A stretch of DNA of 64,000 nt from Mobula hypostoma (Eukaryota), in NCBI RefSeq assembly GCF_963921235.1, contig NC_086108.1:11346001-11410000 (forward strand), given 5' to 3'. The position numbers were made by a program, and so were the translations under genes. Position 1 is the first letter of the stretch. Each line of letters starts with the position of its first letter. The notes under the pieces are model-generated. The model was not told where the DNA came from. It ran no database searches and saw only the letters and a program-made list of their open reading frames with translations. Below are positions 1-61,496 of this stretch, piece after piece.

Positions 1-730
1 AAGCTCCTCCTGGGCAGGGCGCGGATCACCACCCGACAGAGGCAAGGGACAGGAAGGGACAGAACCAACTGCAGGTAACGGCAAGATGGCCTGGCTTACC
101 CGATGGGGGCAAGAGACAGGAAGGGACAGAACCAACCGTAGGTAACGGCAAGACGCCCTGGCTTACCTGAGCGGAGGTAAGGGACAGGAAGGGAGCTAGG
201 TACAGGGTGGCTCCAAGACAAGACTGCAGGCGAGATGAGGCGAGAGTTACCAGCAAGACAAGGCAAGGCTTCTGGCAAAGCAAGGCCAGACAGAACTTCA
301 GGCGAGGCGAGAGTTACCGGCAAGACAAGGCAGGGCTTCAGGCGAGGAAATAGAAGGCAGAGGAAGGGATACAAGGAGTAAGGACAAGAACAATCCAGCA
401 GCCACGCCTGGGTCTCTGGAGGTATTTATGCAGCCAGCCCCAACGAGCATCAGCTGCCTCAATTAGCTCAACAAGGACAGAAACAGGGTAGACAGGAAAA
501 CCTGGAGCAAGGGTCGATGGACCGGACCGTGAACCGGAATACGAACTTCACAGACCGCACCATGATAGGAGCGCCCCTCCCCCCCCCCACCACCCCATGG
601 GAGTCTCTTGGTGACCAAACAGGGTATCCAGACTATGGACGACCCGGGCGGGTGGGAGAGTATTAAACCGAAAGGAACCCTGGGTGGCAAGAGGAAAGAG
701 ACAGTGTCTATGTCGCTGGGTCCATGGTGG

Positions 731-742
731 GCTGGATTGTTC
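731..742 (-). promoter_or_regulatory. Self-priming primer-binding site of copy A
   Basis: Element-sense GAACAATCCAGC immediately follows the 5' LTR. It is the exact complement of element-sense GCTGGATTGTTC at 399-388 (1828-1817 in the other LTR, one G-U change), about 24 nt after a CATAAATA box at 430-423. Confidence 0.75.
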
Positions 743-999
743 TGTCATAAGGAGGTGGCTGGGAACGGACCCAAGTGCAAGACACAGACACTGAAGTACT
801 AGGGTCAGGACTAGGATACAGGGCGATGGCAAGGAGATAGACAGGAAAAGCAGGAACCTCGAACAGGACTGGACAAGGGAGCTAGGAGCCCGGGCTTGGA
901 CTCTGAGCCAGAGACTGGACAAGGACCCAGTACCTGGATCTTGCCTCTGGCTCAGACCCCAGAACTAGGCAAGGTCGAGGCTTGGCAGGCAGGCAGGAT

Positions 1000-1500
1000 G
1001 AGGCTGGAGTCTTCAGTCTAGAGGCTAGAGGTGAGGCTTGGCAGGAGGCAGGAGGCTGGAGTCTTCAGTCTAGAGGCTAGAGGTGAGGCTTGGCAGGAGG
1101 CAGGAGGCTGGAGTCTTCAGTCTAGAGGCTAGAGGTGAGGCTTGGCAGGAGGCAGGAGGCTGGAGTCTTCAGTCTAGAGGCTAGAGGTGAGGCTTGGCAG
1201 GAGGCAGGAGGCTGGAGTCTTCAGTCTAGAGGCTAGAGGTGAGGCTTGGCAGGAGGCAGGAGGCTGGAGTCTTCAGGCTGGAGTCTTCAGGCTAGAGGCT
1301 GGGCGGGAGGCTGGAGTCTTCAGGCTTGAGGCTGGGCGGGAGGCTGGAGTCTTCAGGCTTGAGGCTGGGCGGGAGGCTGGAGTCTTCAGGCTTGAGGCTG
1401 GGCGGGAGGCTGGAGTCTTCAGGCTTGAGGCTGGGCGGGAGGCTGGAGTCTTCAGTCTTGAGGCTGGGCGGGAGACTGGAGTCTTCAGGCTTGAGGCTAG
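1000..1500. repeat. Tandem repeats inside LTR: ~5 x 52-bp unit, then ~6-7 x 33-bp unit
   Basis: GCTGGAGTCTTCAGTCTAGAGGCTAGAGGTGAGGCTTGGCAGGAGGCAGGAG, then GCTGGAGTCTTCAGGCTTGAGGCTGGGCGGGAG, read directly. Confidence 0.95.
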
Positions 1501-2271
1501 GTAGGCTCCTCCTGGGCTGGGTGCGGATCACCACCCGACGAAGGCATAGGACAGGAAGGGCCCAACCACAGGTAACGGCAAGACGGCCTGGCTTACCTGG
1601 GCGGAGGCAAGGGTCAGGAAGGGAGCTAGGTACAGGGTGGCTCCAGGACAAGACTGCAGGCGAGATGAGGTGAGAGTTTCCAACAAGACAAGGCAAGGCT
1701 TCTGGCAAAGCAAGGCCAGACAGAACTTCAGGCAAGGCGAGAGTTCCGGCAAGACAAGGCAGGGCTTCAGGCGAGGAAACAGGAGGCAGAGGAAGGGATA
1801 CAAGGAGTAAGGACAAGAACAATCCAACAGCCACGCCTGGGTCTCTGGAGGTATTTGTGCAGCCAGCCCCAATGAGCATCAGCTGCCTCAATTAGAGCTC
1901 AACAAGAACAGAAACAGGGTAGACAGGAAAACCTGGAGCAAGGGTCGATGGACCAGACCGTGAACTGGAATACGGACTTCACGGACCGGACCATGACACA
2001 AATAGATGTCGTGTGGAGGCTTGCGAGCCTCAGGAATTGTGTCAGGTGATGCCATCTCAGGACCAGCCATGTTGAAATGGCTGTGGACAAGATGCCAGAT
2101 GTAGATCGATCCAACCCCGGCTCCTGAACAGACAGACTTGCATCTGCTCCACCTGCTCCTCCGGGCCACACTTCAATTAGAAGTGTGAGTGCCATACAAA
2201 ATGACAATTAATGTAGTTTCCCAACCTCCCAGTGCCAGTCCCCTGTCAAGTTTTAATACCTTGATTTCCAC

Positions 2272-6487: not shown

Positions 6488-9225
6488 AAAGTTCGAAGTA
6501 CATTTATTATCCAAGTATGTATATTGGAATCTACCTGGAGACTCACCTTGCTGCAGGCAGCCACAAAACAAAGAAACACAAAGAAAAGAAACCACACTCT
6601 GATGATCATCAAACATCCAATGTGTTAAAAAAGAACAAATCTTGAAAACAGTAAAAAGTAAACAAATAACATAAACCACAGAATCTCCGAAAGTGTGTCC
6701 ACAGCCACAGAGCCACTGAGGTGAGTGAAGCTGGTCCACGATCACCACGGCTGCAGGGAACAGCTCAGTGCCCAGGCAAGTGAAGATGGTCCAGGAGCTT
6801 GAAGGCCGCAGGCCACAGTCACAGAGTCAGTTCAGTGCTGAGTGAGTGACGATGGCTGTGACCACAGTCACAGAGTCAGTTCAGTACTGAGCGAGTGACG
6901 ATGGCTGCAGGTCACAGTCACAGAGTCAGTTCAGTACTGAGCGAGTGACAATGGCTGTGACCACAGTCATAGAGTCAGTTCAGTGCTGAGGGAGTGACGA
7001 TGGTGGCAGGTCACAGTCACAGAGTCAGTTCAGTACTGAGGGAGTGACGATGGCTGCAGGTCACAGTCACAGAGTCAGTTCAGTACTGAGCGAGTGACAA
7101 TGGCTGCAGGTCACAGTCACAGAGTCAGTTCAGTACTGAGCGAGTGACAATGGCTGCAGGTCACAGTCACAGAGTCAGTTCAGTACTGAGCAAGTGACAA
7201 TGGCTGTGACCACAGTCACCGAGTCAGTTCAGTGCTGAGGGAGTGACGATGGTGGCAGGTCACAGTCACAGAGTCAGTTCAGTGCTGAGCGAGTGACGAT
7301 GGCTGTGACCACAGTCATAGAGTCAGTTCAGTACTGAGGAGTGACGATGGCTGCAGGTCACAGTCACAGAGTCAGTTCAGTACTGAGCGAGTGACGATGG
7401 CTGCAGGTCACAGTCACCGAGTCAGTTCAGTGCTGAGGAGTGACGATGGTGACAGGTCACAGTCACAGAGTCAGTTCAGTGCTGAGGGAGTGACGATGGC
7501 TGCAGGTCACAGTCACAGAGTCAGTTCAGTACTGAGCGAGTGACGATGGCTGCAGGTCACAGTCACCGAGTCAGTTCAGTGCTGAGGAGTGACGATGGTG
7601 ACAGGTCACAGTCACAGAGTCAGTTCAGTGCTGAGGGAGTGACGATGGCTGCAGGTCACAGTCACAGAGTCAGTTCAGTACTGAGCGAGTGACGATGGCT
7701 GTGACCACAGTCACCGAGTCAGTTCAGTACTGAGCGAGTGACGATGGCTGCAGGTCACAGTCACAGAGTCAGTTCAGTGCTGAGTGAGTGACGATGGCTG
7801 TGACCACAGTCACCGAGTCAGTTCAGTGCTGAGGGAGTGACGATGGTGGCAGGTCACAGTCACAGAGTCAGTTCAGTGCTGAGGGAGTAACGATGGCTGT
7901 GACCACAGTCACAGAGTCAGTTCAGTGCTGAGGGAGTGACGATGGCTGCAGGTCACAGTCACAGAGTCAGTTCAGTACTGAGCGAGTGACGATGGCTGTG
8001 ACCACAGTCACCGAGTCAGTTCAGTACTGAGCGAGTGACGATGGCTGCAGGTCACAGTCACAGAGTCAGTTCAGTGCTGAGCGAGTGACGATGGCTGTGA
8101 CCACAGTCACCGAGTCAGTTCAGTGCTGAGGGAGTGACGATGGTGGCAGGTCACAGTCACAGAGTCAGTTCAGTGCTGAGCGAGTGACAATGGCTGTGAC
8201 CACAGTCATAGAGTCAGTTCAGTACTGAGCGAGTGACAATGGCTGTGACCACAGTCATAGAGTCAGTTCAGTACTGAGCGAGTGACGATGGCTGTGACCA
8301 CAGTCATAGAGTCAGTTCAGTACTGAGCGAGTGACGATGGCTGTGACCACAGTCATAGAGTCAGTCCAGTGCTGAGGGAGTGACGATGGCTGCAGGTCAC
8401 AGTCACAGAGTCAGTTCAGTGCTGAGCGAGTGACGATGGCTGTGACCACAGTCACCGAGTCAGTTCAGTGCTGAGGGAGTGACGATGGTGGCAGGTCACA
8501 GTCACAGAGTCAGTTCAGTACTGAGGGAGTGACGATGGCTGCAGGTCACAGTCACAGAGTCAGTTCAGTGCTGAGGGAGTGACGATGGCTGCAGGTCACA
8601 GTCACAGAGTCAGTTCAGTACTGAGCGAGTGACGATGGCTGCAGGTCACAGTCACAGAGTCAGTTCAGTGCTGAGGAGTGACGATGGCTGCAGGCCACAG
8701 TCACAGAGTCAGTTTAGTACTGAGGTTTCTTGATCAAATCTCACAAATAATAAAAATAAATATTAAAGGAAAACACGAAGAACATGAACTGCAGAGTCCC
8801 CAAAAGTGAACCACAGTTGTTCAGTGCCGAGGCAAGTGAAGCCCGTTCTGGGGCCTGACGGCAGCTCCCCAAACTCTGTGGTACAGGACCCAGGACTTCT
8901 GCACCTTCTGCCAAGAGCAGCGAGAAGTGAGAGAGACGGGTCAAAGGCAAGCAGACGGCTCTATACACCTGTTTTATTGCTACTCTCTACCTCAACAATT
9001 TTAACCTTGCTCGATGCTTTATTCAGCAGAGAATAATGGAGCTGACCACGAGGTCATTTTTCACCATTAGAAAGCGACACAGCCTCGCTCAGCAATGGCC
9101 GCTACACTCCATGCTGAATCTCCCAGGAGATCGTAAAAATGTCTGGTTGTTTAGTCATCTCAGAGGTAATCTTTGAAAGGGAAATTAGAGGCGGCAGTTA
9201 ATGGCATTTCAGAAGAAGTGTGACA
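6488..9225 (-). mobile_element. Family X non-autonomous retroposon hosting a minisatellite; 5' end probably continues at 14406-14475
   Basis: AAAGTTCGAAGTACATTTATTATCCAAGTATG tail and CAGGCAGCCACAAAACAAAG motif. 14406-14475 resembles the reverse complement of the family 5' end at 28111. Confidence 0.6.
6812..8725. repeat. Minisatellite, 49-50 bp unit, about 38 copies
   Basis: Unit CACAGTCACAGAGTCAGTTCAGT(A/G)CTGAG(C/G)GAGTGACGATGGCTG(CAGGT/TGAC), head to tail with no unique spacers. Confidence 0.97.
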
Positions 9226-14240: not shown

Positions 14241-15175
14241 TGTACTTACATAGTTTAGTGCTTCCTGCACTCTGGTTGATCGTTCATTGATTCTGTTATA
14301 GTTACTACTCTCTGGATTTGCTGAGTATGCCCACATGAAAATGAATCTTAGGATTGTATATGGTGACATATATGTGCTTTGATGATAAAATCTACTTTGA
14401 ACTTTGAAGAGTAGTATCTGTTAATTTTATGAGCTGTCTGCAAGGTGTTGCCATTGGTTTCTGGCACCTTCTTGCTATCTTGCTATACCTTCTAAAACTT
14501 TCCCATCCATGTAACTGTCCAACTGGCTTTTACAAGCTGTACCTGCCTGAACCATTTCCCTTGGAGGATCATTCCACATTGACACCACTGTCTGGGTAAA
14601 ATAATTTGTCTTGCCTCTGTCACGGTCCAGTCCATGAAGTCCACATTCCGGTTCACGGTCCAGTCTGTGGATGCCGTATTCTGGCTATTCCTTTTTTCCC
14701 TTGTTCCGTTGGGTGCCTTAATCGAGGCACCTGATTCTCGTTTCGGGCTGGCAACATAAATAGCTCTGGGATCCGGTGATTCCTTGCTGGACTGTCCTTG
14801 TCAGTAACCTCGTCAAAATCCCCGTCAAGTTAACCCGCCAGAGAGAGACTTGAGCCGCTGTCTGTAGTTCCTGGGCCGCGTTGAGGGCTCGCCGCTACTT
14901 GGAGCCTATTCGTGTCAAGATAAAGAACAGACTATCGTTGTGTGGTTTTGTCTCTCCATGTTCTCTCCTCCCCAGGGTAGGTCCAGCCGTTTGCTGCTAC
15001 CCTGAGGGGGGTACGGTCTCAGTGTTCTGTGTCCTGGGTGTAAGAAGAGTTCCGGTTCTATATCCTGTGTCCAAGGAGGAGTCCCGGCTCTGTGTTCTGT
15101 GTCTTGTGCCTTAGTCAAGTCTGAGCCTAGTCCAAGTCAAGAGTCAAGTTCCAAGTCCAAGTCGAGAGTCAAGTT

Positions 15176-16555
15176 CGTGACGGGATCCTGAATTATCCCT
15201 ATGAACTATGCTTTTAAGACAGAGAGATAGAGAGGTGTCCAACACAGACACCTTGTAATTAAGAGAGAGAGAGAGGCGATGACTGCTTGGAGATGGTGTT
15301 CTGGTTTCTCTGCAGAATGTTTACACTTTTGCAAGGACACTGCCAGCTTCTGTGTTCTTACAGAAAGAGAATGGAGGAGCTACGTGATGGATAGCTGGTG
15401 TTCAGCATGGTGAGATAACTAGAAGGTCAGCTGATAGACTGACAGACACATAATTTTGGACACTGGATGAGCTTTGTTGTGCCCACAGAAAGGTGGGTTT
15501 TTGGAGGATTGATCAGGAGGATCAAACAGTGGCTCTCACAGTGTGGAAAAGGTGTGACCGGTGGGGAGTTATCAGTGTGTCAACCCTTGCCTGGGTTGAT
15601 AACCTCTCCACAGAAAATGGTGGTCTCCTTGTTGTGGTCACATTCGGTGACTTTAAAGGAAGAGGAGAGGGGAGAGAAAGGCTTGAAACAGAAGAAACCT
15701 AGTGACAAAGAGGTCACTGTTTGGACTCTCTCTCTCTCTCTCTAAATAGCTTGTAAGGGTGAGTTTGAGTTCCATTCAAATACGAAGGTGTGATTGTCAT
15801 GTAGTTAATCCACTGGAGTGGGTTCTCTGGTGAGGGGAGTACCTTTGTGGATGCCATTTGTGAGTTACCCTTGTCTGGGTGTGGTAGTTCACTGAAGAAA
15901 GGCACCCCTGTGGTAAATCACTGTTGGAGTTATTTCATATGTCGTGGAACTGGTTAAGTGGCCATCACGTTGTGTGTTTGGGGTTGGTTCCCTTGCAGAG
16001 GGTCCCCTTATTGATAAGCTACTGTTGGTGATAATCCATATGCGGATTCTGTTTGAGTATCCTATGGCCACCACTTGGGAATGACTCGTAGCTGAATTCA
16101 GGTGTGGCACCACTTGTGTTGAAAGGGTATTCGTTGAAGATCACTGTTGGTGATACTTCGTGTGTGGAGTGGAACAACTTCGGAGATAAAACCTACTACT
16201 ATTGTTATTTTGTACTGCTGTCATGGAATCTGTGGAATATCGCCGTAATTGCCTTCTCTCGGCATTCACCCTGGATTACAAATATCTCTCTCTCATCACC
16301 TATTCTGTGGATGAACTGAACTTCCATACTTTACCATCTCAAGACTCTAAGCCTTGTGTTCCCCAAGCTCAATAGTTTGGGAGTTATATTTGCACATATA
16401 TATACACGTAACACTGTTAGCATGTTTGATTTATCCGGTTATATATGACTGTATTACGTAGTTACTAATAAAAATAGCTTATGTTAGCACTAATACCAGA
16501 CTCTGGCTGTTTTCCATTTCTGCTGGCTCTTTAACCTGTCATGGGGTGCGTGACG
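15176..16555 (+). mobile_element. Solo LTR (Gmr1-like Gypsy family) inserted in the 5' LTR of copy B
   Basis: Absent from the 3' LTR. Ends CGTGACG...CGTGACG (decayed TG..CA), flanks AGTT/GGTT. 3' part AATAAAA...CCAGACTC...TCCATTTCTGCTGG resembles the LTR end at 43570-43658. Confidence 0.75.
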
Positions 16556-16975
16556 GGTTCCAAGTCCAAATCCGAGTCAAGTCCAAGCCAAGCCGAATCA
16601 AGTCGCAAGACCAAATCGAGAGTCAATTTCCAAATCCAAGTTGAGAGTCAAGTTCCAAGTCCAAGTCGAGAGTCAAGTTCCAAGTCCAAGTCCAAGTCAA
16701 ATCCAAGCCAAGTCCGAGTCAAGTTCCAAGTCCAGGTCAAGAGTCAAGATTCAAGTCCAAGTCGAGAGCCAAGTTCCAAGTCCAAGTCGAGTCAAGTTCC
16801 AAGTCCAAGTTGAGAGACAAGTTCTAAGTCCAAGTCCGAGTCCAGTCCAAGCCAAGTCCTAGTTCTAGTCAAGAGCCAAGTCTAGACCCAGGTACCGAGT
16901 CCCAGCCAAGACCCAAGTCCTCAGTCATCACCTGAGTTTCCTGTCAAGTTCAAGTCCCAAATCCAAGTCCAGATT
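16556..16975. repeat. Degenerate CAAGTC-based tandem array within LTR (also 15110-15175 and 17788-17990)
   Basis: Repeated CCAAGT/CAAGTC/GAGTCAAGTT units; longer in the 5' LTR than in the 3' LTR. Confidence 0.9.
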
Positions 16976-18324
16976 TTCCGATTTGTCACTCAATGTCTAC
17001 CTTCGTGTTATTATTTTGTCCTTGTTCCTTGGCTTCCCTAGCATTCTTAATAAATATAGTCCAGTTCTTCGTACTTCAGTGTCTGTGTCTTGCATTTGGG
17101 TCCACTTCCATCGCCCCCTTATGACAGAATGGCCCAGTCAAACATGGCCCCATTGACACAGACATGGTCATGAAACTCTCGCCATACAGGGTTCCCTCTT
17201 GTTGAAAACACCCCTACCTGCCTGGGTCGTCGATGATCTGGGCGAGCCTGTTGGATCACCAGGAGGCTCCCATAGTAGGGGTGGGGGGGTGGGGTTGATA
17301 CTGTCACGGTCCGGTCCAGGAAGTCCGCATTCTAGTTCACAGTCCAGCCCGTGGATTCCGTATTCTGGCTATTCCTTTATTCCGTTGGGTGCCTTAATTG
17401 AGGCACCTGATTCTCGTTTCGGTCTGGCAACTTAAATAGCTCTGGGGTCCAGTGATTCATTGCTGGACCGTCCTCATGAGTAACCTCGTCAGAGTCCCTG
17501 TCAAGTTAACCCACCAGACTGAGACTTGAGCCGCTGTCTGTTGTTCCTGGACAGGGTTGAGGGCTCGCCGCTACTTGGAGCCTATTCGTGTCAAGATAAA
17601 GAATAGTCTATTGTTGTGTGATTTTGTCTCTCCATGTTCTCACCTCTGCTGGGTAGGTCCGGACGTTTGCCGCTACCCTGAGGAGGGAATGGTCTCAGTG
17701 TTTTGTGCCCTGTGTCTAAGAAGAGTCCCAACTCTATGTCCTGTGTCCAAGAACGAGCTCTGGCTCAGTGTTCTGTGTCCTGTGTCTAAGTCAAGTCTGA
17801 GCCTAGTCCAAGTCAAGGGTCAAGTTCCAGGTCCGGGTCAAGTCCAAGCCAAGTCCAAGTCCAGTCTAAGCCAAGTCCTAGTTCTAGTCAAGAGCCAAGT
17901 CTAGAGCCAGGTACTGAGTCCCTGTCAAGACCTGAGTCCTGAGTCATCACCAGAGTTCCCTGTCAAGTTCAAGTCCCAAGTCCAAGTCTAGTTTTCCCGG
18001 TTTGTCACTTAACGTCTACCTTCGTGTTATCATTTTGTCCTCGCTCCTTGGCTTCCCTAGCATTCTTAATGAACATAGTCCAGTTCCTAGTACTTCAGTG
18101 TCTGTGTCTTGCATTTGGGTCCGCTTCCATCACTCCTTTATGACAGCATCAGAGGGGACGCCACTTCTGAGCAGTCACCATTAATGTGAGGAGATGTTTC
18201 AAGTGGTTTTTGAATGCAGAGGAACCGTTTTTCACAGACTCAGTACAGCTCTGACTCTGTAGATGAGACAGTAGTGTGCAAATAACAGAGTCTGTGCACA
18301 ACGCTGAGAAACTGTCTCTAATAA

Positions 18325-19326: not shown

Positions 19327-19389
19327 AGAGTAAACCAGTAGAATTCTCTGCCACTGGAAACAAGTCAAAGGAGATGTTGAAGGACATCA

Positions 19390-19850
19390 CTGGGCTAGGT
19401 AGCCATCTCCTTGACCTGCTGAGATTTTCTAGCTCTTCATGGTCCTGGGGAAGCTCTGTGAGCTAGGCAGCCAGCTCCTCGACCTGCTGAGTTCCTCTAG
19501 TACCTCAAAATCTGGAGAACCATATTGGGTTGGAAGCCTTCTTTTCAACCTGCTGAGTTCCTCTAGCACATCAGAGTCCTAGAGGATCTAAGTGTCCCAG
19601 GAAACCATCTCCTCAACCTGTGGTCCTCTAGCACCTCAAAATCTTAGTGGACCTGAGTGAGCTAGGTAGCCATCTCCTTGACATGCTGTGTTTCTCTATT
19701 GCCTCAGAGTCCTGGAGGCCTTCAGTGAGGTAGGTAGCCAACTCCTTGGCCAGCTGAGTTCCTCTAGCACTGCTGTGTTCTGGAGAAACCCAGTAGGGTA
19801 AGTAGCCATCTCCTCGTCTTCTGAGTTCCTCCAGCACCTCAGAGTCCTAC
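19390..19850. repeat. Degenerate tandem array, ~60-65 bp unit, about 7-8 copies
   Basis: Recurrent GCTAGGTAGCCATCTCCTTGACCTGCTGAGTTCCTCTAGCACCTCAGAGTCCTGG. Confidence 0.7.
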
Positions 19851-20821: not shown

Positions 20822-21515
20822 TGGGAGGGGATTTGATAGAGGTATACAAAATGATGAGGGGTTAGATAGGGTAAATGCAAGCAGGCTTTTTTCCCACTGA
20901 GGTTGGCTGGAACTACAACTTGAGGTCATAGGTCAAAGGCCCAAACTTCAAAGGCTCGTTTATTTTCAAAGTATACAACTCAGAAATTCTTCTTCTCCAA
21001 GTAGCCGTGAAACCAAGAAAGAAAAGGTGAAAAGCGAAAAGATTAAGGGGAACATGAGGGGAAACTTCTTCAATCAGACTGTGAAATGAGCTGACAATGC
21101 AAGTAACCGGAAATCTGCAGATGCTGGAAATTCAAGCAACACACATAAAAGTTGCTGGTGAGCTCAGCAGGCCAGGCAGCATCTCTAGGAAGAGGTGCAG
21201 TCAACGTTTCAGGCCGAGACCCTTCGTCAGACAAAGGATCTCGGCCTGAAACGTCGACTGCACCTCTTCCTAGAGATGCTGCCTGGCCTGCTGCGTTCAC
21301 CAGCAACTTTTATGTGTGTTGACAGTGCAAGTGGTGGATGTGAGCTCGATTTCAAGGTTTAAGAGCTTCGGATAGGCAATGGATGGTAGGGGTATGGAGG
21401 GCTATGGTCCCAGTTGCAGGTCAATGGCAGTAGGCAGTTTAAATGGTTCGGCACAGACTAGATGGGCTGAAGGGCCCATTTCTGTGCTGTACTTTTCTGT
21501 GACTTGATGACTCTA
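20822..21515 (+). mobile_element. CR1-type 3' fragment interrupted by small inserts
   Basis: GGGGATTTGATAGAGGTATACAAAAT...GATGGGCTGAAGGGCC...TCTGTGCTGTA. Confidence 0.7.
21105..21321. mobile_element. Penelope-derived foldback element carrying hammerhead motifs, with ~13-bp TSD
   Basis: 21137-21321 is a near-perfect palindrome centred on 21229. Minus arm reads CTGACGA-AGGGTCTCGGCCT-GAAACGTT-GACTG. Flanks TGACAATGCAAGT (21092-21104) and TGACAGTGCAAGT (21320-21332). Confidence 0.8.
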
Positions 21516-31574: not shown

Positions 31575-33685
31575 GGGGGAATGAGAGGATGAGGAGGGTG
31601 TGAGTCATTGAGGGAGTGAGGGAATGAGGGGGTGAGGGGATGAGGAGTTGAGGAGATGAGAGGGAGGAGGGGATGAGGGGATATGGAGATGAGGGATGAG
31701 AGGATGGGGATGAAGGGATGAGAGGGATGAGAGGATGGGGATGAGGGAGTGAGATAATGAGATTAGGGGATTAGGGAATAAGGTGGATGAGGGGTGAGGG
31801 ATGAGGGAGGTGAGGGGGATGAGGGGTATGATGGAGTGAGGTAATGAGATGAGGGATGGGGATATGAGGGGTTGAGGGAATGAAGAGATGAGGGATGAGG
31901 GGGTTGAGGTAATGAGATGAAGGATGAGGGACTGAGGGCTGTGATGGATAAGGGGTTGAGGGGATGAAGGAAGGGGGATGAGTGAATGAGGGGTTGAGAG
32001 AGTGAGGAAGTGAGGGTTGAGGGGATAAGGTGGATTGGAGATGATGAGTGAGGGATGAGGGATGGGGGTGAGGGGGATGAGGGGTATGAGTGGGTGAATA
32101 TATGAGATGAGGGATGAGGGATGAGGGGATGAGGGATGAGGGTTGAGGGACAAAGGGATGAGGAATGGGAGTGATGAGGAGGATGAGGTTATGAGGAGGA
32201 TAAGGGTATCAGGAAATGAGGGGAATAAGGGGATGAGGGGACTAAGGGAATGTAAGGGATGAAGTAATGAGGGGTGATGGATGAGGGAATGAGGGATTGA
32301 GGGAATGAGGAAGTTATGGATGAGGGATAAAGGGATGAAGGGGATGAGTGGGTGAGGGATGAGGGAATGAAGGATAAGGGGATAAGGGGAATCAGGGATG
32401 AAGGATGGGTGGGATGGGGGAATGAGGGGGATGAGAGGATGAGGAGGATGAGAGTGAGGTAATGAGGAGATGAGGGGATGAAGGGAATGAAGGAATAGGG
32501 GGGTTGAGGGAATGGGGGATAAGAGAATGAGAGGTTGAGGGAATGAGGTGAGGGATAAGTGGATGAGGGATAAGGGGATGAGCAGGATGAGGGATGAGGG
32601 GTATAAGGGAATGAGGATGTTGAGGGAATGAGGGATGAGGGGGATAAGGGATAAAGGGATGGAAATGAGGGGGATGAGGGATGAGGGGTATAAGAGAAAG
32701 AGGGCTTTGAGGGAATGAGGAATGAGGGGGATGGGGGATAAGGGGATGAGGGGGATGAGGGGATGAGGGGGATGAGTGTGAGGGGTATAAGGGAATGAGG
32801 GATGATGGGTTCAGGGAATAAGGAGGTGAGGGATGAGGGTGAGGAATAAGGGGATGAGGGTGCTGTGATAAGGGGATGAGGGATGAGGGAGATGAGGAAA
32901 TGAGGAAATTAAGGGGATGAGGGATGAGGGAATAAGGGATGAGTGTTTGAGTGGGATGAGGGGATGGGAGATGAGGAAATGAGGGGTTGAAGGAATAAGG
33001 AGGTGAGGGATGAGGGGATGATGGACAGGGGATGAGGGGTATGAGGGGTATATGGGGATGAGGGGGTTGAGGGAATGAGGGATGGGGATGAGGGGTTGAG
33101 GGAATAAGGAGGTGAGGGATGAGGGGATGAGGGATAAGGGAATGAGGGGGTGAGAGGTGAGCAATAAGGGGAATAGGAATATAGGGATGAGGGAATGTGG
33201 GATAAGGGGATGAGTGGGATGAGGGGTCAGGGGGATGAGGGATGAGGGGGTGAGGGATGCGTGTGGTGAGGAGATGAGGGGGATGAGAGGATGAGGAGGA
33301 TGAGAGATGAGGGAATGAGGTTGAAGGAATAAGGAGGTAAGGATGAGGGGGATGTGAGGGATGAGGGGATGGGAGAATGAGAGAATGAGGATGAGGGTGA
33401 GGGGAATAAGGGGTGGGGGTTGAGCAGGATGAGGGGATAAGAGATGAGGGAATCAGGGGTTGAAGGAATAAGGAGGAGAGTGATGAGGATGAGGTAATGA
33501 GATGAGGGAATGAGGGGATGAGGGAATAAGGAAGTGAGGGATGAGGTGATGAGGGGGATGAGAGGGTGAGGGATGAGGGTTTGAGGGATAAGGGGATGAG
33601 GAATGAGGTGTGAGTGGGATGAGGGGCCAAGGGGGGAAGAGGAAGGAGGGGATGAATGGGATGAGGGGGATGAGGAATGAGGGGC
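31575..33685. repeat. ~2.1-kb purine-rich degenerate (GGGATGA)n low-complexity tract; resumes at 35549-35665
   Basis: Almost C-free G/A tract read directly; interrupted by a Rex-type LINE. Confidence 0.95.
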
Positions 33686-35548
33686 TGAGGCAGTGTAGCA
33701 TACAGGAGGTGTGGACAGGCATTGGTTTCAATCAGCCTAGCTGCAGAGCCTTGGAATGCAGCCATGAATGGGCTAATGAGTTAAACCGATTTTTCAATAG
33801 GTCTGACAATTGCACTCCTGATCACACCCCCCTCAGCACACCAGCCCAGGTGCTGAGGCACCTAATGCTCCTTCAGTACTAAATACTCCCCTCCTCCCTC
33901 CTCCCCCATCCAGTTCAACACGTGGATGAACAACACAGGCTACCTCTGTCTACACCCCATCCTTCCCCTGTACCTACTATCCACATCTCCACATCCCAAT
34001 CTTCACCTCCCCCAGCCCTCACCTTCCTCTAACTCCCCATTCATCATGGACTCATCTTCACTACTGAGCAGGTGAGAAGGGCTCTGGGGATACAGACACG
34101 GCAAAGCATTGGGACCGGATGGTATGATCCTGAAGGAGTGTGCTGAGTAGCTGTGCGGTGTCCTCCAGCGCGTTTTCAACCTGAGTCCCAGCCTGGAAAG
34201 GGTCTCCACTGTGTGGAAAGCACCATGTGTGGCCCAGTGCCGAAGAAGGGACAACCAAAAGTCTTGAATGACTCCCGTATAGTGGCCCTGACCTCACACA
34301 CCATGAAGACCCTTGAGAGGCTGGTCCTGGCTCACCTCCGACCCCAGGTCAGATCGACCCTCGATCCCCTGCAGTTTGCCTACCATGAGCACATTGGAGT
34401 CGACGATGCTGTCATCTACCTGCTGAACAGAGCCTACTCCCATTTGGATAAGTAGGACAGCACTGATTTGGATCATGCTTTTTGATTTCTCCAGTGCTTC
34501 TAATACTATACAGCCCTCATTGCTGGGGGAAAAACTCTGTTCAATGCAGGTTGACACCTCCATTGTATCCTGGGTAATGGACTACCTGACTGGCAGGTCA
34601 CAGTTTGTGTGGCTTCAGAGCTGTAAGCGGCATTGTGGCCTCATAGGGGACTGTATTGGCTCCCTTCCTGTTTACCGTGTATACCTTAGACTTTCGGTAC
34701 AACGCTGAGTCGTGTCATCTGCAGAAATTCTTCGATGACTCAGCAATAGTTGGGTGTATAAAGGGAGGACAGGAGGATGAATACAGAGCCCTGGTGGAGG
34801 ACTTTGTCAAATGGTGCAAGCTGAAATCATCTGCAGCTCAACATCAGTAAGACAAAGGAGATGGTGATGGACTTTAGGAAGCCTAAGCCTGCTACACTGC
34901 TCTGTTACTATTGATGGTGAGGACATGGATATGATGGGAACCTACAGGTACCTGGGGTGCATCTGGATGACAGACTTGAGTGGAGCACCAACACAGAGGC
35001 TGTGTATAAGAGGCGCCAGTCATCTCTACTTCCTGAAGAGACTGGCCTCTCCTTTACATGTTCTACCAGTCTGTTGACACCAGTATAACCTTCTATCTGG
35101 TGGTGTGCTGGGACAGTGGCATCAACACGGGTGATGCCAACAGGTTCAATAAACTGATTAGAAAGGCTGGTTCTGTTATAGGAGTCAAACTGGACACTCT
35201 GGAGGTTGTAGTAGAACAAGGGACCCTGTGGAAATTCCTGGCAAATCCAGACAACATTTCTCACCTTCTGCACGCCACCTTGGCTGAGCAGCAGAGCACT
35301 TTTAATAATAGATTAAGATAACTGCGCTGCTCCAAAGAACACTATATGAGGTCATTCTTGCCCTTGACCATTAGGCTCTATAATGAGTCAACCTATAGCC
35401 GGGGAAGTGATAACCCCTTTCAGTTAGACTGTTTGTGGTAACTTATTTTTTATTCTTTTATACTTCTCTTCTAATATTTATATATGAACACTTGTAATGC
35501 TACTGTGACACTGTAATTTCCTTTGGAATCAATAAAGCATCTATCTAT
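33686..35548 (+). mobile_element. Rex1/Babar-type LINE, degenerate
   Basis: ANELNRFFNR, LNDSRIVALTSH, DPLQFAY, LFDFSSASNTIQP, QKFFDDSAIVG; AATAAAGCATCTATCTAT tail. Confidence 0.88.
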
Positions 35549-37569: not shown

Positions 37570-38470
37570 TACTCCCTCAAACCTCACTACCTCCTCTCTC
37601 ACACCTCACTATCTCAACATTTCAAACCTCACTCTTCATTCCCTTGATCACTACCTCAAACACTTGAACCTCCCTTCCTTAGCCCCTCGAGGCATACTCC
37701 CTCACAACCTCACACCTCACCATCTCAGACTCTCAACGCAACTCGCTATCCCGTCAAACATTACTCCCTCACGCCCTTGATCTCTCATCACACGTCACCT
37801 CCTCAAACACTCGATCTCGCGTCACCTCACTTCACCTGATCTCTTGTAGTACGTCACCGCCTCACTCCCCCAATCTCCTTCGCCCATTCACCCTTCAATT
37901 TCTCGTCATCCGTCACATCACCACCCCCCTGATATCCAGTCAAAACTTACTCCCTCACCCTGTTGGACTCTTGTCACCACCTCACCCCCTCGATCTCCCA
38001 GCACCACCTCACCTCCTTGATCTCCCGTCACCCCCTCACCCCACTCAATCTCCCGTTACCACCTCATCCCCCTCAATCTCCCGTCACCTCCTTACCCCCT
38101 CAATCTCCTGTCACCACCTCATCCACTTGATCTCCCATCACCACCTCATCCTCCTTGATCTCCTATCACCTACTCACCCCCCTCGATCTCCTATCACTTG
38201 CTCACCCTCTCAATTTCTCATCAACTCCTCACCCCCTCAATTTCCTGCCACCTCCTCACATCCTGGATCTCCCACCTCCACCTCACCCCCCCTCGATCTC
38301 CCGTCACCACCTCAGTCCCTCGATCTCCCACCACCACCTCAGCCCCTCAATCTGTCATCACCACCTCAGCCCCTCGATCTGTCATCACCACGTCACCTCT
38401 CTCGAAGTCTTGATGCCTTTCAGCACCTCACACCCTCACTCTCTCATCCCCTCTCCCCTCCGTTGTCACC
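37570..38470. repeat. Pyrimidine-rich degenerate tandem repeat (~26-bp CCCCTCGATCTCCCGTCACCACCTCA-like unit)
   Basis: Read directly. Confidence 0.85.
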
Positions 38471-42410: not shown

Positions 42411-43662
42411 GGTACAACTCCCCACAGGCTACAGGGGGAATTGAACCTGGGTCGCTGGTACCGTAAAGTGTTGTGGTACCCTCCATGCTACTGTGCCACA
42501 CCCACTTGGCAAATGTGATAAAATGGAGAAGTTGTTTTCTTCGCTGCTTAAACTAGATCCAGAAGACAGAAGTATAAGGCGGTCCCTAATTAAACCTAAG
42601 GCTCTAGAACAACTAGGCTTTAGGGAGGGTGGAACTCCCTCCTCGGGGCAGGATGGGAATGAAATGAAATCAGTGAATTTTGAGTCAACAGAGTGAAGAG
42701 AATGATTGGTAAATCGGTAACTCACTGCTCATTACACCACCGGTGTTTAGGACATATGACGAAAGAGGGTTACAAAAGTACACATAGACTAAGATGTTAA
42801 CTGTCCTGTGCTAGCACCAGTGGGATCAACAGTTGATCTGCCACCTGTCTTCAGGAGAGAGAGATAAGGAAGACAATGGAGCAGCATTTGGAAATGTTAA
42901 TGAAGAGGTGAGAGAGTTTAACGGAAGGAGACACCGGTCTGAGTATTGTCAAGACCAGCTCCTTTTGAACCCTGAACTGTTTGAAGTGTGATGGGCAGGC
43001 GATACCCCAGCAGGGGGATAAAAAGAGGCAGGTTCGCTAAGACACCACACACACGACACCACGAGGTAACGAGACCCTGGAAGCAGCGCGCCCCCACAAG
43101 TCGGTGGGAGTTTTGGAGGTCTGGTTGCGGTATACACGCACAGCCATAGACGCACAGGGTGGAAAGATACGGTCGGCGGGAACCTGGTGTGTGTCCGCCC
43201 TTGCCTGAGTGCCGGATTCACCGCCGAAGAACGATCGTGTCTGGAACGGAGGGGTCACAGTCGGTGACCTCAGATGACATTACAAAGGGCTCGCCTGAAA
43301 GCTAACTGCGAGGAATATCGAAGGTCTGTTTGGAATCCGATTTGCATATTCATTCGTTCTCTCTCTCTCTCTCTCCAACGGCACGACGGCGATTACTGCG
43401 AACTGAACTAAACTGAACTCTATCACTTGTGATTGATCATCTTACCCCTAGACTACGATAGAGCTTGATTGACCCTATTATCCTAGTTCTGTGTACATGT
43501 GTGTTTATTCATTGCTAACCTGTTGCATTTATATCCTTACTATTAGAGTACTGTGTTGCTTATTTCTTTAATAAAACTTTCTTAGTTCCAGTAATCCAGA
43601 CTCCAACTGAGTGGTCCATTTCTGCTGGTTTGGCAACCCAGTTACAGGGTACATAACATAAG

Positions 43663-43689
43663 TGGGGTTCTCGTCCGCGAATTTGAACG
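43663..43689 (+). promoter_or_regulatory. Primer-binding site complementary to tRNA-Pro 3' end
   Basis: TGGGGTTCTCGTCCGCGAATTTGAAC resembles the canonical TGGGGGCTCGTCCGGGATTTGAAC. Confidence 0.8.
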
Positions 43690-43757
43690 CTAAATTTGGG
43701 ACGGAGTAAATTGATTGGGTTAAAATTCCCGAAAGAAAGAAAAGGCAAACAGCAGAA

Positions 43758-46670
43758 ATGGAGATTGAGGAATTTCTAAAGACGCCGACCTTGGAGGCAT
43801 TAGAGGATGCCAGGAAAGCGGAATTGGCAGCTGTGGCCAAACGGTTGAATCTTGTTAAGGGAAAGTCGACAATGAGGAGAGAGGAGATACACAGAGCTAT
43901 CGTAGAGCACTATGTATCTAAAGGTGTGTTTCCCCAAGGGGAGCTGGAGGTGGTATCAATGGGAAAACCTGGTGGAGACGCAGTACAGGTGCAGATTGAA
44001 AAACTGAGACTCAAGCACGAGTTCCGGGTGCGGCAGCTAGAACACGAAGAGAGACAGTTAGAACGGCAAGAGAGAGAGAGAGACAGTTAGAACGGCAAGA
44101 GAGAGAGAGGGACAAGCAGTTGGAGCGAGAAGAGAAACAGAGGGAAAGGGAATTCGAGCTGGAGAGGTTAAAGATGGTGGCAGAGCAGGGGCCCATGCCG
44201 AACCAAGGTGGAGGGTTCAGGGCGACCCAGGAGGTTAGGCTGGTTCCCCCATTTGACGATACTGATGTGGATTGGTACTTTCTCCATTTCGAAAAAGTTG
44301 CTACAAGTCAGGACTGGCCGAGGGATAAGTGGGCTGTTTTGCTTCAGAGTGTGCTTAAAGGGAAAGCCCAGCAAGCTTACTCGGCTTTGTCCGCGGAAGA
44401 TGCCCAGAGGTTCGAGGTGGTGAAAGAGGCCATCCTCAGGATTTATGAGTTGGTCCCGGAGGCATACCGGTAGAGGTTCCGGAATGCGAGGGAACAGTGG
44501 GACCGCACGTATTTAGAGTTTGCCCGTGAGATGCAGACATATTGTGAGCGTTGGTGCGCCTCGAAGGGGGTAAATGGGGATTATGATGGACTGCTACAGC
44601 TGATCCTGATTGAGCAGTTTAAAGGTTGTGTCCCTGAATGTATGAGACCCTACCTAGATGAGAAAGAGGCAGCCACGTTAGCCGCAACTGCTAAGTTAGC
44701 AGATGAGTACGCGTTGAAGCATAAAATGAAGTTTTCCCCGAGTAAAGGCTACTAGAAGGGTAGTCAGGATGGCGGGGAGAGTCCGCCAGAAAAGTCAGTA
44801 AGTACGCCGGGGACTAGTGAGAAGGATAAGGTAGACCGGGAGCAGTCTGGTAGGAAGTCTCCTGGGGTCATCTGTTATAATTGTGGGAAAGTCGGACACT
44901 TTGCGTCCAGGTGCTTTGCCCCAAAGAAGGAGACGGGGAAAGGAAAAACGGCGATTTCGACTGGCTGTATTGGGCTGGTAAACAAACCGCTAGGAGAGGA
45001 CAGGTCTGCCAAAGTTCAGGAAGGGCATGAGAGGTTTATCTCGGTCGGATTGGTGTCGGTGAAGGAGGGGTTAAACCCAGTTCCAGTATGGATCTGGAGA
45101 GACATGGGAGCATGTCAGTCATTGATATTGAAGAGTGTGTTAGAGTTTAGTTCAGAGACCCAGACTGGGGAGGTCAGGGTTAAAGGTATTGGAAAAGGGA
45201 CTGAAGCCGTGCCTTTGCACCAGATACACCTACAAAGCGACTTGATCTCTGGACCAGTCACGATCGGGGTGAGACCCGAACTACCGATGAAAGACGTGGA
45301 GGTCTTACTTGGTAATGACCTTGCGGGGGGAATTGTGTTCCCAGCAGTGAGATTGACAGGTCAGCCTGCCAGCATTGAGGCCCCGCCCATGGACTCACAG
45401 GTTTATCCTGTTTGCGCAGTGACTCGCTGTGTGTCCAGAGAGACTGCTGAGACGTTTCTACCAGCCTTGTACGAGGAGGGGGTAGAAAGTGAAAAGAAGG
45501 AGCGTAATGAAACAGGAGGAAGTGGGGAAACTAAGGTAGATTTATCATTAGAAAAGAAGGACTTTATACAGGCACAGGAGCGAGACGAGGAAACAGCTCT
45601 CTGTGAAACAGAATTAGGAAGGGAGCCAGTGAATTATGGTGTGAAGGGGAAGGTGCTAAGGAAGGAAGGAAGACCAAGTACCGCAGATGAGGAATGGGGG
45701 GTGGTGCAAAAGAGTTATGGGGATGAGATTTTTAACCTGGCCCACAAGGTACCCCTCGGTGGACATTTTGAGGTGCTGAAGGAAACAGTCGGCGGAGCCA
45801 TGAGAGAATTTTTCTGGCTGCACAGGAGGAAGGATGTTATTGATTATTGCAGACGCGAACTGAGACGGTCACAGGCTTTTGATATGCTAACAAACCTAGT
45901 CGGTGTTAGCGCGGAAATCAATGAAGCTAGGGTGCCACCTGATAAAGGGAAAACCCATTTTGAAAAGATGAGTATGGTACCGACCAGATGGGAGAAGGCT
46001 ATTGTTTTGCTGATAAGGTCTCTCCCTTAATCCCCGAACAAAGCGACCCTTTAGGAGAGCTAATTAAACGGCTCGCACACGTGTGTTTGATTGTCCCGAG
46101 GCGATGCAAAGAACTGGGACGTTGGGTGGTGTTTGTTACGTTAGGTTAGCCTAGTGAGCAACAACCCTATAGAATGAGTAATTCAGTGATGAAAGGGCTA
46201 AAGAACACATACGGCTGTCTGAAGCCAGCTTGATAGTGGACCTTGAAAAAAATGAGTTCGGCCACACGAAGGTCACTTATCTGGGAATTGTGGTGACACA
46301 GGGGCAGCTGGCGGCGATGCAAGCTAAGGTGCGGGCTATCTCTGACATCTCAACCCCGACAGACAAGAGGGCCCTCAGAAGGCTCTTGGAGATGGTGGGG
46401 TACTGTAGGAAGTTTTGCAATAACTTTGCGAGTACTACCCCTCCCCCTCCTACTAAGCCTTTGCGAAAGAAAACTAAGTTGGGATGGGATGACCCTTGTT
46501 ATCGTGGTCCGGGACGAAACCCAATGAGAGGTTACACTGATCACAATTCATCAGTGTTTTCGGCCACTATGAAGTTTGCTAAGTTGAAGCCTGGTATAGA
46601 GGATTATTAAAATAACACGTATAAAAGGGGCAGAAAATGTGATTGCTGACTGTCTGTCCAGGTGTTGACA
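43758..46670 (+). pseudogene. gag-pol remnant: SCAN-like capsid, CCHC knuckle, protease, fragments of integrase, RT and RNase H
   Basis: PEAYR*RFR...LILIEQF...LADEY; CYNCGKVGHFASRC at 44873-44914; RDMGACQSLI...LLGNDL; LAHKVPLGGH...FFW...DYCR; VTYLG...VGYCRKF; YTDHN; IKGAENVIADCLSR. Frameshift and stops present. Confidence 0.9.
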
Positions 46671-47690
46671 ACTTAAAAAGTCTCTGTATTAGCCAAATAG
46701 CTGATGAAGATGTATATTTGTGCGTATCTAATAATGTATTCATGCTTGTAAATTTTACCCTGGTAAAAATCCTTAAAAGGGAGGGGTGTGACCAAAGAGA
46801 GTTACAAAAGTACACATAGACTAAGATGTTAACTGTCCTGTGCTGGCACCAGTGGGATTAACAGTTGATCTGCCACCTGTCTTCAGGAGAGAGAGATAAG
46901 GAAGACAATGGAGCAGCATTTGGAAATGTTAATGAAGAGACGAGAGAGTTTAACGGAAGGAGACACCGGTCTGAGTATTGTCAAGACCAGCTCCTTTTGA
47001 ACCCTGAACTGTTTGAAGTGTGATGGGCAGGCGATACCCCAGCAGGGGGATAAAAAGAGGTAGGTTCGCTAGGACACCACACACACGACACCACGAGGTA
47101 ACGAGACCCTGGAAGCAGCGTGCCCCCACAAGTCGGTGGGAGTTTTGGAGGTCTGATCGTGGTATAGACGCACAGCCATAGACGCACAGGGTGGAAAGAT
47201 ACGGTCGGCGGGAACCTGGTGTGTGTCCGCCCTTGCCTGGGTGCCGGGTTCACCGCCGAAGAACGATCGTGCCTGGAAGGGAGGGATCACAGTCGGTGAC
47301 CTCAGAAGACATTACAAAGGGCTCGCCTGAAAGCTAACTGCGAGGAATATCGAAGGTCTGTTTGGAATCCGATTTGCATATTCATTCGTTCTCTCTCTCT
47401 CTCTCCAACGGCACGACGGCGATTACTGCGAACTGAACTAAACTGAACTCTGTCACTTGTGATTGATCATCTTACCCCTAGACTACGATAGAGCTTGATT
47501 GACCCTATTATCCTAGTTCTATGTACGTGTGTTTATTCATTGCTAACCTGTTGCATTTATATCCTTACTATTGGAGTACTGTGTTACTTATTTCTTTAAT
47601 AAAACTTTTTTAGTTCCAGTAATCCAGACTCCAACTGAGTGGTCCATTTCTGCTGGTTTGGCAACCCAGTTACGGGGTACATAACAGACA

Positions 47691-61314: not shown

Positions 61315-61496
61315 GTGCTGGAAATCCGAGCAACACACGCAAAATGCTGGAGGAACTCAGCAGGCCAGGCAGCATCTATGGAAAAAAGTACAGTCGATTA
61401 GTCCATCTGAAGGGTTTTGGACTGAAACGTCGACTGTACTTTTTTCCATAGATGCTGCCTAGCCGGCTGAGTTCCTCCAGCATTTTGTGTGTGTTG
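61315..61496. mobile_element. Penelope-derived foldback element (related to 21105)
   Basis: ~67-bp inverted arms at 61331-61397 and 61430-61496; loop ends in GAAACGTCGACTG with a decayed hammerhead core. Confidence 0.8.

What the first reader, a model, noticed from the sequence alone, without database searches (positions are those of the whole stretch)
14618..18145. Second diverged TRIM with the same 175-bp core and compensatory PBS/R changes
Seen: copy B has largely different LTRs but an internal region of identical length (17127-17301) that aligns with copy A. Its PBS is GAATGGCCCAG and its post-TATA motif is GCTGGACCGTCC (17462-17473; GCTGGACTGTCC at 14786-14797). Relative to copy A, AA->GG in the PBS is mirrored by TT->CC in the LTR, though two mismatches are present. 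The core looks like a gag start (MDPA...ATQGS-like) fused to the extreme 3' end and PPT. Inference: an old, diversified lineage of self-priming TRIMs propagated in trans. TRIMs are best known from plants, so a vertebrate self-priming family may be poorly described.
Basis: partly seen in the sequence, partly recalled or inferred. Interest (0 to 1): 0.75.

Follow-up and report, generated by a model that had tools for sequence, protein, structure and literature searches.

The report
Gene-less self-priming LTR retrotransposon copy
This is one old, decayed copy of a multi-copy, gene-less jumping element that keeps only short end-pieces of a sushi-type retrotransposon's genes and whose primer site and repeat change together across related lineages, so its RNA likely primed its own reverse transcription using enzymes likely borrowed from full-length relatives, a mechanism already known for this group.

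Summary
The element is real: LTR (14618-17126, split by an unmentioned 1.38-kb nested solo LTR), 175-bp core, LTR (17302-18145), with a 5-bp target duplication (4/5). The core recurs hundreds of times in the genome. It aligns to the gag start and pol end of a resident chromodomain-bearing Gypsy (Tf1/sushi-like) family.

Across seven lineages the primer site (PBS) and the post-TATA motif covary at five positions; only the true matching of lineages (1 of 5040 permutations) reaches 66/70 Watson-Crick pairs. Complementarity for the other two duplexes of the Tf1 'pretzel' is also present.

Corrections: the identical 175-bp length is coincidence (range 158-185). Copy B's two A-C mismatches are inherited by its lineage (15/17, 17/17), which has the weakest duplex. 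At about 2.1 kb it fails the TRIM size definition. No helper with matching LTRs was found (0/46).

Self-priming is already described for vertebrate Tf1/sushi elements, and this scan noted similar self-priming mini-elements in other genomes. Verdict: new member of a known kind.

The parts
14613..14617 (+). Left target-site duplication GCCTC
   Evidence: 4/5 match to the right copy
14618..17126 (+). 5' LTR of copy B (TG...CA; about 1125 bp without the nested insertion)
14755..14762 (+). TATA-like box of the 5' LTR
   Evidence: 31 nt upstream of the R motif, a spacing shared by most mini-lineage copies
14786..14797 (+). Predicted self-primer (R1-R12) in the 5' LTR; transcription start inferred at its first base
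   Evidence: start site not measured
15176..16555 (+). Nested solo LTR of an unrelated abundant family, 4-bp duplication (3/4 match); inserted into B's 5' LTR
   Evidence: 1336 candidates, 40 of 40 scored match; ends defined from 9 other copies
16557..16918 (+). Expanded 6/25-bp tandem repeat inside the 5' LTR (shorter in the 3' LTR, 17784-17901)
17077..17103 (+). U5 arm of the U5:leader stem
17127..17138 (+). Primer-binding site abutting the LTR end; does not start with TGG; complementary to the R motif with two inherited A-C mismatches
17135..17201 (+). Remnant of the gag start, out of frame, doubling as the leader arm that pairs with U5
   Evidence: z 5.4-7.9, 0/300 shuffles, against 4 helper copies
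17205..17236 (+). Probable remnant of the integrase linker just before the chromodomain (chromodomain itself absent)
   Evidence: z 4.1-7.0 for B, 7.0-9.1 for lineage E, 0.8-3.7 for A and D; an alternative alignment to the post-chromodomain tail also exists
17236..17272 (+). Remnant of the extreme pol 3' end
   Evidence: z 5.7-9.6
17277..17294 (+). G-rich polypurine tract, variable in length across copies
17302..18145 (+). 3' LTR of copy B, 844 bp
17462..17473 (+). R motif in the 3' LTR, 31 nt after the TATA-like box at 17431
18146..18150 (+). Right target-site duplication GCATC
1..1998 (-). Copy A (sister lineage): 5' LTR 1998-743, core 742-568, 3' LTR from 567 running off the window

Best explanation
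Copy B is an old, decayed insertion of a multi-copy, gene-less LTR element whose core aligns to the gag start and pol end of a resident chromodomain-bearing Gypsy family, and whose RNA likely primed its own reverse transcription Tf1-style with enzymes likely supplied in trans by full-length relatives. Shown: two LTRs, 5-bp target duplications, solo LTRs and tandem arrays, hundreds of cores, homology of the core to the helper's ends, and R/PBS covariation across seven lineages including the helper. Inferred: origin by internal deletion from a sushi-like ancestor; transcription starts about 31 nt after the TATA box; the first 10-12 nt pair with the PBS, which lies in the loop of a U5:leader stem; helper RNase H would cut off this 5' end as the primer; helper Gag/Pol would package, copy and integrate the RNA. 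B's lineage spread with a weaker duplex: one internal A-C mismatch at R6, an unpaired R11 and partial extra pairing into the U5 end.
For: Multi-copy: 346 and 519 candidates for the B and A cores, 40 of 40 scored matched each time; 218 exact hits to a junction pattern against 0 in the control. Integrase footprints: perfect 5-bp TSD in 8 of 17 two-LTR elements and 4/5 in one more; 21 of 46 B-type LTR loci are solo LTRs with at least 4/5 TSD. Helper family X: gag (PF03732; PF16297 below cut-off), RT, RNase H, integrase, SH3_Tf2-1 and Chromo; gag nearest PEG10 and RT nearest Ty3 among solved structures; the top 10 relatives are 62-66% identical and the named relatives are teleost Gypsy proteins; 626 candidates. 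Core versus helper ends: 0/300 shuffles for B against 4 of 4 helper copies at both ends. Covariation: in 100 elements 93% of R1-R10 cells pair; two-sided changes between lineages at R3, R4, R6, R7, R8; 66/70 lineage-level Watson-Crick pairs, reached by 1 of 5040 permutations (mean 53.6). A core tree without the PBS columns recovers A (100/99) and D (96/87) and groups B with C3 (100/97). U5:leader stem: 90.6% of 746 cells paired versus 23-40% in slid controls. The three-duplex pretzel is described for Tf1/sushi elements.
Against: Nothing here measures a transcript start, cleavage or mobilisation. B's lineage has the weakest duplex (median -10.8 kcal/mol for R12:PBS12 versus -18.5 in A and -16.8 in X), and B-type R pairs better with a C-type PBS (-12.4) than with its own (-9.7). 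In whole-transcript folds the R:PBS helix had probability 0.0 in 4 of 4 B copies; this is partly a pseudoknot limit of the program, since it reached 0.8 in only 2 of 8 helper copies and 0.89 in 7 of 11 A copies. The U5:leader stem shows no more covariation than shuffles (1 two-sided pair). Lineage E was split by its R7 state for the permutation test, which flatters it slightly, and 12 of 112 typed rows were dropped, one of them a helper-type copy (L031) whose PBS mismatches its R at two positions. Helper X shares only LTR termini with the minis, so it is a relative and not shown to be the mobiliser. No named sushi-ichi reference was placed on a tree.
Confidence: 0.82

Rival explanations
1. The family is self-priming, but B's own lineage had largely lost cis priming and was primed in trans by the short primer cut from a co-packaged sister or helper RNA, or in another register.
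For: A-C at R6 in 15 of 17 and C-A at R11 in 17 of 17 B elements. A- and C-type R motifs pair with B's PBS as well as or better than B's own (-11.4 to -13.9 versus -9.7). B's PBS change lets it fold back on U5 locally (mean PBS unpaired probability 0.13-0.38 in 3 B copies versus 0.52-0.78 in 6 others).
Against: B still tracks the compensated C:G at R7 (15/17) and keeps R2-R5 and R10 paired. The R11 mismatch also occurs in D and E, so it looks tolerated. Sister primers would carry the same R6 mismatch. B copies are older than A copies (K2P about 0.13 versus 0.07), which lowers their median energies.
Confidence: 0.1
2. The minis were mobilised by a cognate autonomous family with the same LTRs, now lost or missed, rather than by the unlike-LTR sushi families seen here. 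This concerns who the helper was and is compatible with self-priming.
For: Helper X shares only about 30-45 nt of the U5 end and the LTR start with the minis. Searches score only the best 40 candidates. 11 of 46 B-type LTR loci could not be classified.
Against: 0 of 46 B-type LTR loci lie beside helper-like internal sequence. Junction patterns demanding an in-frame gag start gave 1 and 13 hits: helper-type or other sushi-like copies with unrelated LTRs, or further minis. Minis with cores of about 160-175, 200 and 300 bp share blocks of LTR with each other, which suggests long independent evolution.
Confidence: 0.25
3. The R/PBS complementarity is incidental or a relic, and the elements were primed by a host tRNA or a tRNA half.
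For: Copy B alone is only marginal against shuffles. No tRNA library was compared with the PBS.
Against: The PBS lacks the TGG start in every lineage and changes at five positions in step with the element's own LTR, which a fixed host tRNA would not produce.
Confidence: 0.03

Closest known systems
Tf1/sushi group of chromoviruses (S. pombe Tf1/Tf2; Takifugu sushi-ichi and the V-clade)
   Same: PBS complementary to the element's own post-TATA sequence; potential for all three pretzel duplexes; a resident full-length relative with chromodomain integrase; core pieces homologous to its gag and pol ends; LTR start fits the sushi motif TGTYANR.
   Different: No coding capacity; LTRs of 0.8-1.3 kb with internal tandem repeats; the invariant duplex is 10 bp (R11 unpaired in B, D, E) whereas Tf1's primer is 11 nt; B carries an inherited internal mismatch; the LTR end matches CNTNACA at only 6 of 7 positions in copy B.
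TRIMs (plant TRIMs, PbTRIM, Ta-TRIM, biv-TRIM, Helenus/Ajax/Cassandra)
   Same: Two terminal repeats around a short non-coding core with PBS and PPT; TSDs; solo repeats; tandem LTR-core-LTR arrays; mobilisation in trans inferred.
   Different: Total 1.8-2.8 kb and LTRs 0.8-1.3 kb, against under 1000 bp and 100-250 bp; not tRNA-primed; no tRNA, 5S or ribozyme match (one chance-level miRNA hit, E 0.58, in 7 loci).
Internally deleted non-autonomous LTR retrotransposon derivatives (general class)
   Same: Keeps only cis signals and terminal gene remnants of an autonomous family.
   Different: Here the cis signal is a self-priming structure with lineage-level covariation; whether this family is catalogued in Repbase or Dfam could not be checked.

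Membership tests
TRIM | Total length under about 1000 bp | tested here: not met
   Copy B about 2.1 kb without the nested insertion; 16 A-E two-LTR elements summarised span 1820-2752 bp; definition from passages
TRIM | Terminal repeats of 100-250 bp | tested here: not met
   5' LTRs 808-1300 bp; B's 3' LTR 844 bp
TRIM | PBS complementary to a tRNA | tested here: inconclusive
   No TGG start and covariation with the element's own LTR argue against; no direct comparison with a tRNA set was run
TRIM | Short non-coding internal domain with PBS and PPT | tested here: met
TRIM | Target-site duplication and multiple copies | tested here: met
Tf1/sushi self-priming group (as non-autonomous derivative) | PBS complementary to the predicted 5' end of its own RNA | tested here: met
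   93% of R1-R10 cells paired in 100 elements; five covarying positions; weakened in B
Tf1/sushi self-priming group (as non-autonomous derivative) | Two further duplexes between PBS-adjacent sequence and the LTR (pretzel) | tested here: met
   U5:leader stem 90.6% paired versus 23-40% slid, conserved but not covarying; R extension pairs with the U5 end in copy B's duplex folds and lowers median energy most in A, D and C3, little in C1/C2
Tf1/sushi self-priming group (as non-autonomous derivative) | Descent from a chromodomain-bearing Ty3/Gypsy element | tested here: met
   Core ends align to family X; X has RT, RNase H, IN, SH3_Tf2-1, Chromo
Tf1/sushi self-priming group (as non-autonomous derivative) | RT/IN phylogeny places the helper with sushi-ichi/Tf1 | not tested
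   Only similarity evidence: teleost chromodomain Gypsy proteins including Takifugu entries, PEG10 and Ty3
Tf1/sushi self-priming group (as non-autonomous derivative) | Transcript starts at the self-primer and is cleaved by RNase H | not testable with these tools
   No RNA holder listed; only contigs available
Cassandra/Helenus/Ajax/retrozymes | 5S, tRNA or hammerhead sequence in the LTR | tested here: not met
   Rfam on 7 loci: one hit at E 0.58; ARAGORN 0 genes in the window

The most novel reading that the evidence does not exclude
A long-lived radiation of self-priming parasites of sushi-type chromoviruses in a vertebrate genome, in which the primer is 10 rather than 11 nt, an internal mismatch is tolerated, and R/PBS covariation arises partly because plus-strand synthesis copies the self-primer back onto the PBS, so that a single R mutation can be compensated in one replication round.
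Probability: 0.22. Interest if true: 0.58.

Novelty: new member of a known kind. Interest (0 to 1): 0.36.

Why it matters
Self-priming was worked out experimentally in fission yeast Tf1; the papers read describe it for vertebrate sushi elements as a shared or predicted feature. Five covarying positions across seven lineages in one genome are natural comparative support for it. The lineages also show which pairs are dispensable (R11, and R6 in B), which can be tested in the yeast system. For annotation, such elements lack a tRNA PBS and exceed TRIM size limits, so pipelines may miss or mislabel them. The mechanism and the non-autonomous lifestyle are both known, and copy B itself is a dead, interrupted insertion.

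Tried and rejected
Primer-templated rewriting of the PBS: inconclusive, kept only in the novel case. For it: in 39 A copies PBS4-5 reads CA 20, CG 16, TG 1, against CA 227, CG 604, TG 159 at 27 other CpG sites (Fisher p 4e-4), and the state is not clustered on the tree (11 changes, shuffled mean 12.7). Against it: two other sites have similar CA fractions (0.49, 0.53 versus 0.54), another asymmetric site is equally scattered, and the tree is poorly resolved. R variants shared by both LTRs were matched in the PBS in 0 of 4 automated cases; reading by eye adds three matched cases and two more unmatched ones.

Matching-LTR helper: not found.

Expression: no RNA holder listed. Three guessed-RNA contig sets of the same species label cover family LTR pieces but not core 17135-17234; this says nothing on start site or expression.

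Small-RNA or ribozyme content: none.

Whole-transcript folding cannot hold both helices at once (pseudoknot), so it was not used as a test.

'Identical core length' as evidence: rejected.

Literature: searches listed no paper describing a self-priming non-autonomous LTR family in a vertebrate. Subscription journals, Repbase and Dfam were not searchable, and no supplements were opened (the Helenus/Ajax family tables might list related elements).
Full report
OBSERVATION. The sequence at 14618-18145 is LTR, core, LTR. The 5' LTR runs 14618-17126 and is split at 15176-16555 by a 1380-bp solo LTR of an unrelated abundant family with a 4-bp duplication. The 3' LTR is 17302-18145. The two LTRs are 86-87% identical (K2P 0.136 and 0.107) and the flanks read GCCTC / GCATC. 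Copy A lies at 1998 to off-window on the minus strand; its core aligns with B's at 71% over 161 nt. Both cores are 175 bp, but 76 of 78 measurable cores span 158-185 bp and only 4 are 175, because the G-run varies.

FAMILY. The B core gave 346 candidates and the A core 519; all 40 scored matched each time. A junction pattern gave 218 exact hits and 0 in the reversed control. B's U3 gave 2119 candidates. Of 46 distinct B-type LTR loci, 21 are solo LTRs with at least 4/5 of a 5-bp TSD, 14 flank a mini core, 11 were unclear and 0 lie beside helper-like internal sequence. Of 17 two-LTR elements, 8 have a perfect 5-bp TSD and one 4/5; several of the rest are tandem arrays or had ends miscalled by the script. 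A tree of 91 cores without the PBS columns recovers LTR types A and D as single groups and joins B with C3 (100/97), while C1 and C2 are scattered. Further minis with cores of about 200 and 300 bp (lineage E) share 75-81% blocks with B's LTR.

ORIGIN. A junction pattern demanding an in-frame gag start found one locus, a degenerate Gypsy element with stops and frameshifts: gag, RT, RNase H and integrase. Its family X has 626 candidates and carries SH3_Tf2-1 and Chromo domains. Among solved structures its gag is nearest PEG10 and its RT nearest Ty3. Its named relatives are teleost Gypsy proteins, Takifugu among them. B's core positions 9-75 align to X's gag start and 66-168 to X's pol end and PPT, with 0 of 300 shuffles as high for 4 of 4 X copies at both ends; copy A's pol-end match was weaker (z 1.2-5.7). 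The middle piece (17205-17236) also aligns to the linker before the chromodomain (z 4.1-7.0 in B, 7.0-9.1 in E, weak in A and D), so the chromodomain was probably cut out separately. X shares only LTR termini with the minis, so it is a relative; that it or another sushi-like family (L197, L198) supplied the enzymes is inferred. The host was not identified; the relatives fit a fish-like vertebrate, and my impression of a cartilaginous fish is recalled, not tested.

COVARIATION. LTR type was assigned from the sequence between TATA and R, independent of R and PBS; 112 of 131 junctions could be typed. Twelve rows were dropped: six with anchors off by one, three misassigned or interrupted, two tandem partners, and L031, an X-type copy whose PBS mismatches at R3 and R4. 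In the remaining 100, 93% of R1-R10 cells pair. Between lineages, R3 is T:A in minis and C:G in X; R4 is G:C in A-D and A:T in E and X; R6 is A:T but T:A in D; R7 is T:A in A, D, X and half of E, and C:G in B, C and the other half of E; R8 is C:G in B, E, X, T:A in C, and T:A or T:G in A and D. At lineage level 66 of 70 pairs are Watson-Crick, reached by 1 of 5040 permutations (mean 53.6); E was split by its R7 state, which flatters this slightly.

COPY B'S LINEAGE. Its mismatches are inherited: A-C at R6 in 15 of 17, C-A at R11 in 17 of 17, G-U at R1 in 12 of 17. R11 is also unpaired in D (9 of 9) and E (5 of 6), so the invariant duplex is R1-R10. B has the weakest median duplex (-10.8 versus -18.5 in A), copy B alone is marginal against shuffles (33/500 and 10/500), and in copy B pairing extends past R12 into the U5 end. 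Two B-core elements (L008, L182) pair perfectly over R1-R10.

THE REST OF THE STRUCTURE. On 33 sequences from six groups, 23 pairs are 90.6% paired against 23-40% for slid controls, but only one pair changes on both sides and covariation does not exceed shuffles. With the R:PBS helix and the R-extension:U5-end helix, this matches the three-duplex 'pretzel' described for Tf1/sushi elements. Nested folding cannot hold both main helices, and gave the R:PBS helix probability 0.0 in 4 of 4 B, at least 0.89 in 7 of 11 A and at least 0.8 in 2 of 8 X copies.

MECHANISM. Shown: anatomy, copy number, TSDs, homology to the helper's ends, covariation. Inferred from Tf1 biology: start at R1, RNase H cleavage, priming, packaging and integration by helper proteins. 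Primer-templated rewriting of the PBS is plausible because about half of Tf1 cDNA ends in a single-stranded PBS copy, but my tests were inconclusive.

WHAT IS KNOWN. Passages read: PMC6317226 (self-primers described in the Tf1/sushi group from yeast and vertebrates), PMC7175516 (Tf1 11-nt primer), bioRxiv 10.1101/2022.12.06.519325 (pretzel), PMC11042837 (PBS copy on cDNA, tandem elements), PMC3601003 (sushi LTR end motifs), PMC6934838 and PMC10886601 (TRIM definition, animal and fish TRIMs). Butler 2001 and Lin and Levin 1997 were not seen, only cited in these. Searches listed no paper on a self-priming non-autonomous LTR family in a vertebrate; Repbase and Dfam could not be searched. The scan's own notes hold three similar self-priming mini-elements in other genomes, two fungal and one of 1797 letters, and no sequence look-alike.

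VERDICT. A real and well-supported non-autonomous derivative of a Tf1/sushi-like chromovirus. It works like a TRIM but is not one by the size definition. The mechanism is known; the covariation series and the tolerated mismatches are the useful part. New member of a known kind; interest 0.36.

Noticed in passing
window 42757-47686: Another LTR element: 902-bp LTRs 96.8% identical, broken gag/protease/RT-like frames, about 3.1-kb internal region, TGG-type PBS a few bases after the 5' LTR; younger than copy B.
   Followed up: partly
window 15176-16555: Nested solo LTR of an abundant family (1336 candidates) with 4-bp target duplications; several other copies carry an extra 5' segment.
   Followed up: partly
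L186-L196 (e.g. L189, L193, L195): Sister mini-elements with cores of about 200 and 300 bp, an in-frame gag-like start and LTR blocks 75-81% like B's; R7/PBS6 covaries within lineage E in 6 of 6 copies.
   Followed up: partly
L039, L055, L056/L057, L103/L104, L189/L190; G000:C1:78.77-78.79 Mb: Tandem LTR-core-LTR-core arrays and local clusters of the mini-elements, as reported for TRIMs and Tf1.
   Followed up: no
L008, L182: Two B-core elements whose PBS matches their own R over all of R1-R10, including variants that depart from the B norm.
   Followed up: partly
L197, L198: Two further sushi-like gag starts with other LTRs and related PBS sequences, so more than one potential helper family exists.
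   Followed up: no
window 6804-8724; 31609-33690; 19382-19838; 37968-38405: Tandem arrays: 49/50-bp unit x39, GA-rich simple repeat, 68-bp unit, 27-bp unit.
   Followed up: no
window 21137-21321; 61331-61496: Long near-perfect inverted repeats (92 nt at 95% with 1 nt between; 67 nt at 96% with 32 nt between).
   Followed up: no
window 48274-49203 (-): 309-aa stop-to-stop frame that reads like a Gypsy integrase C-terminal region (resemblance recalled, not scanned).
   Followed up: no
window 17060-17134: The U5 end shared by all lineages has high summed depth in three guessed-RNA contig sets, with loose ends running into other sequence; not interpretable as expression.
   Followed up: no
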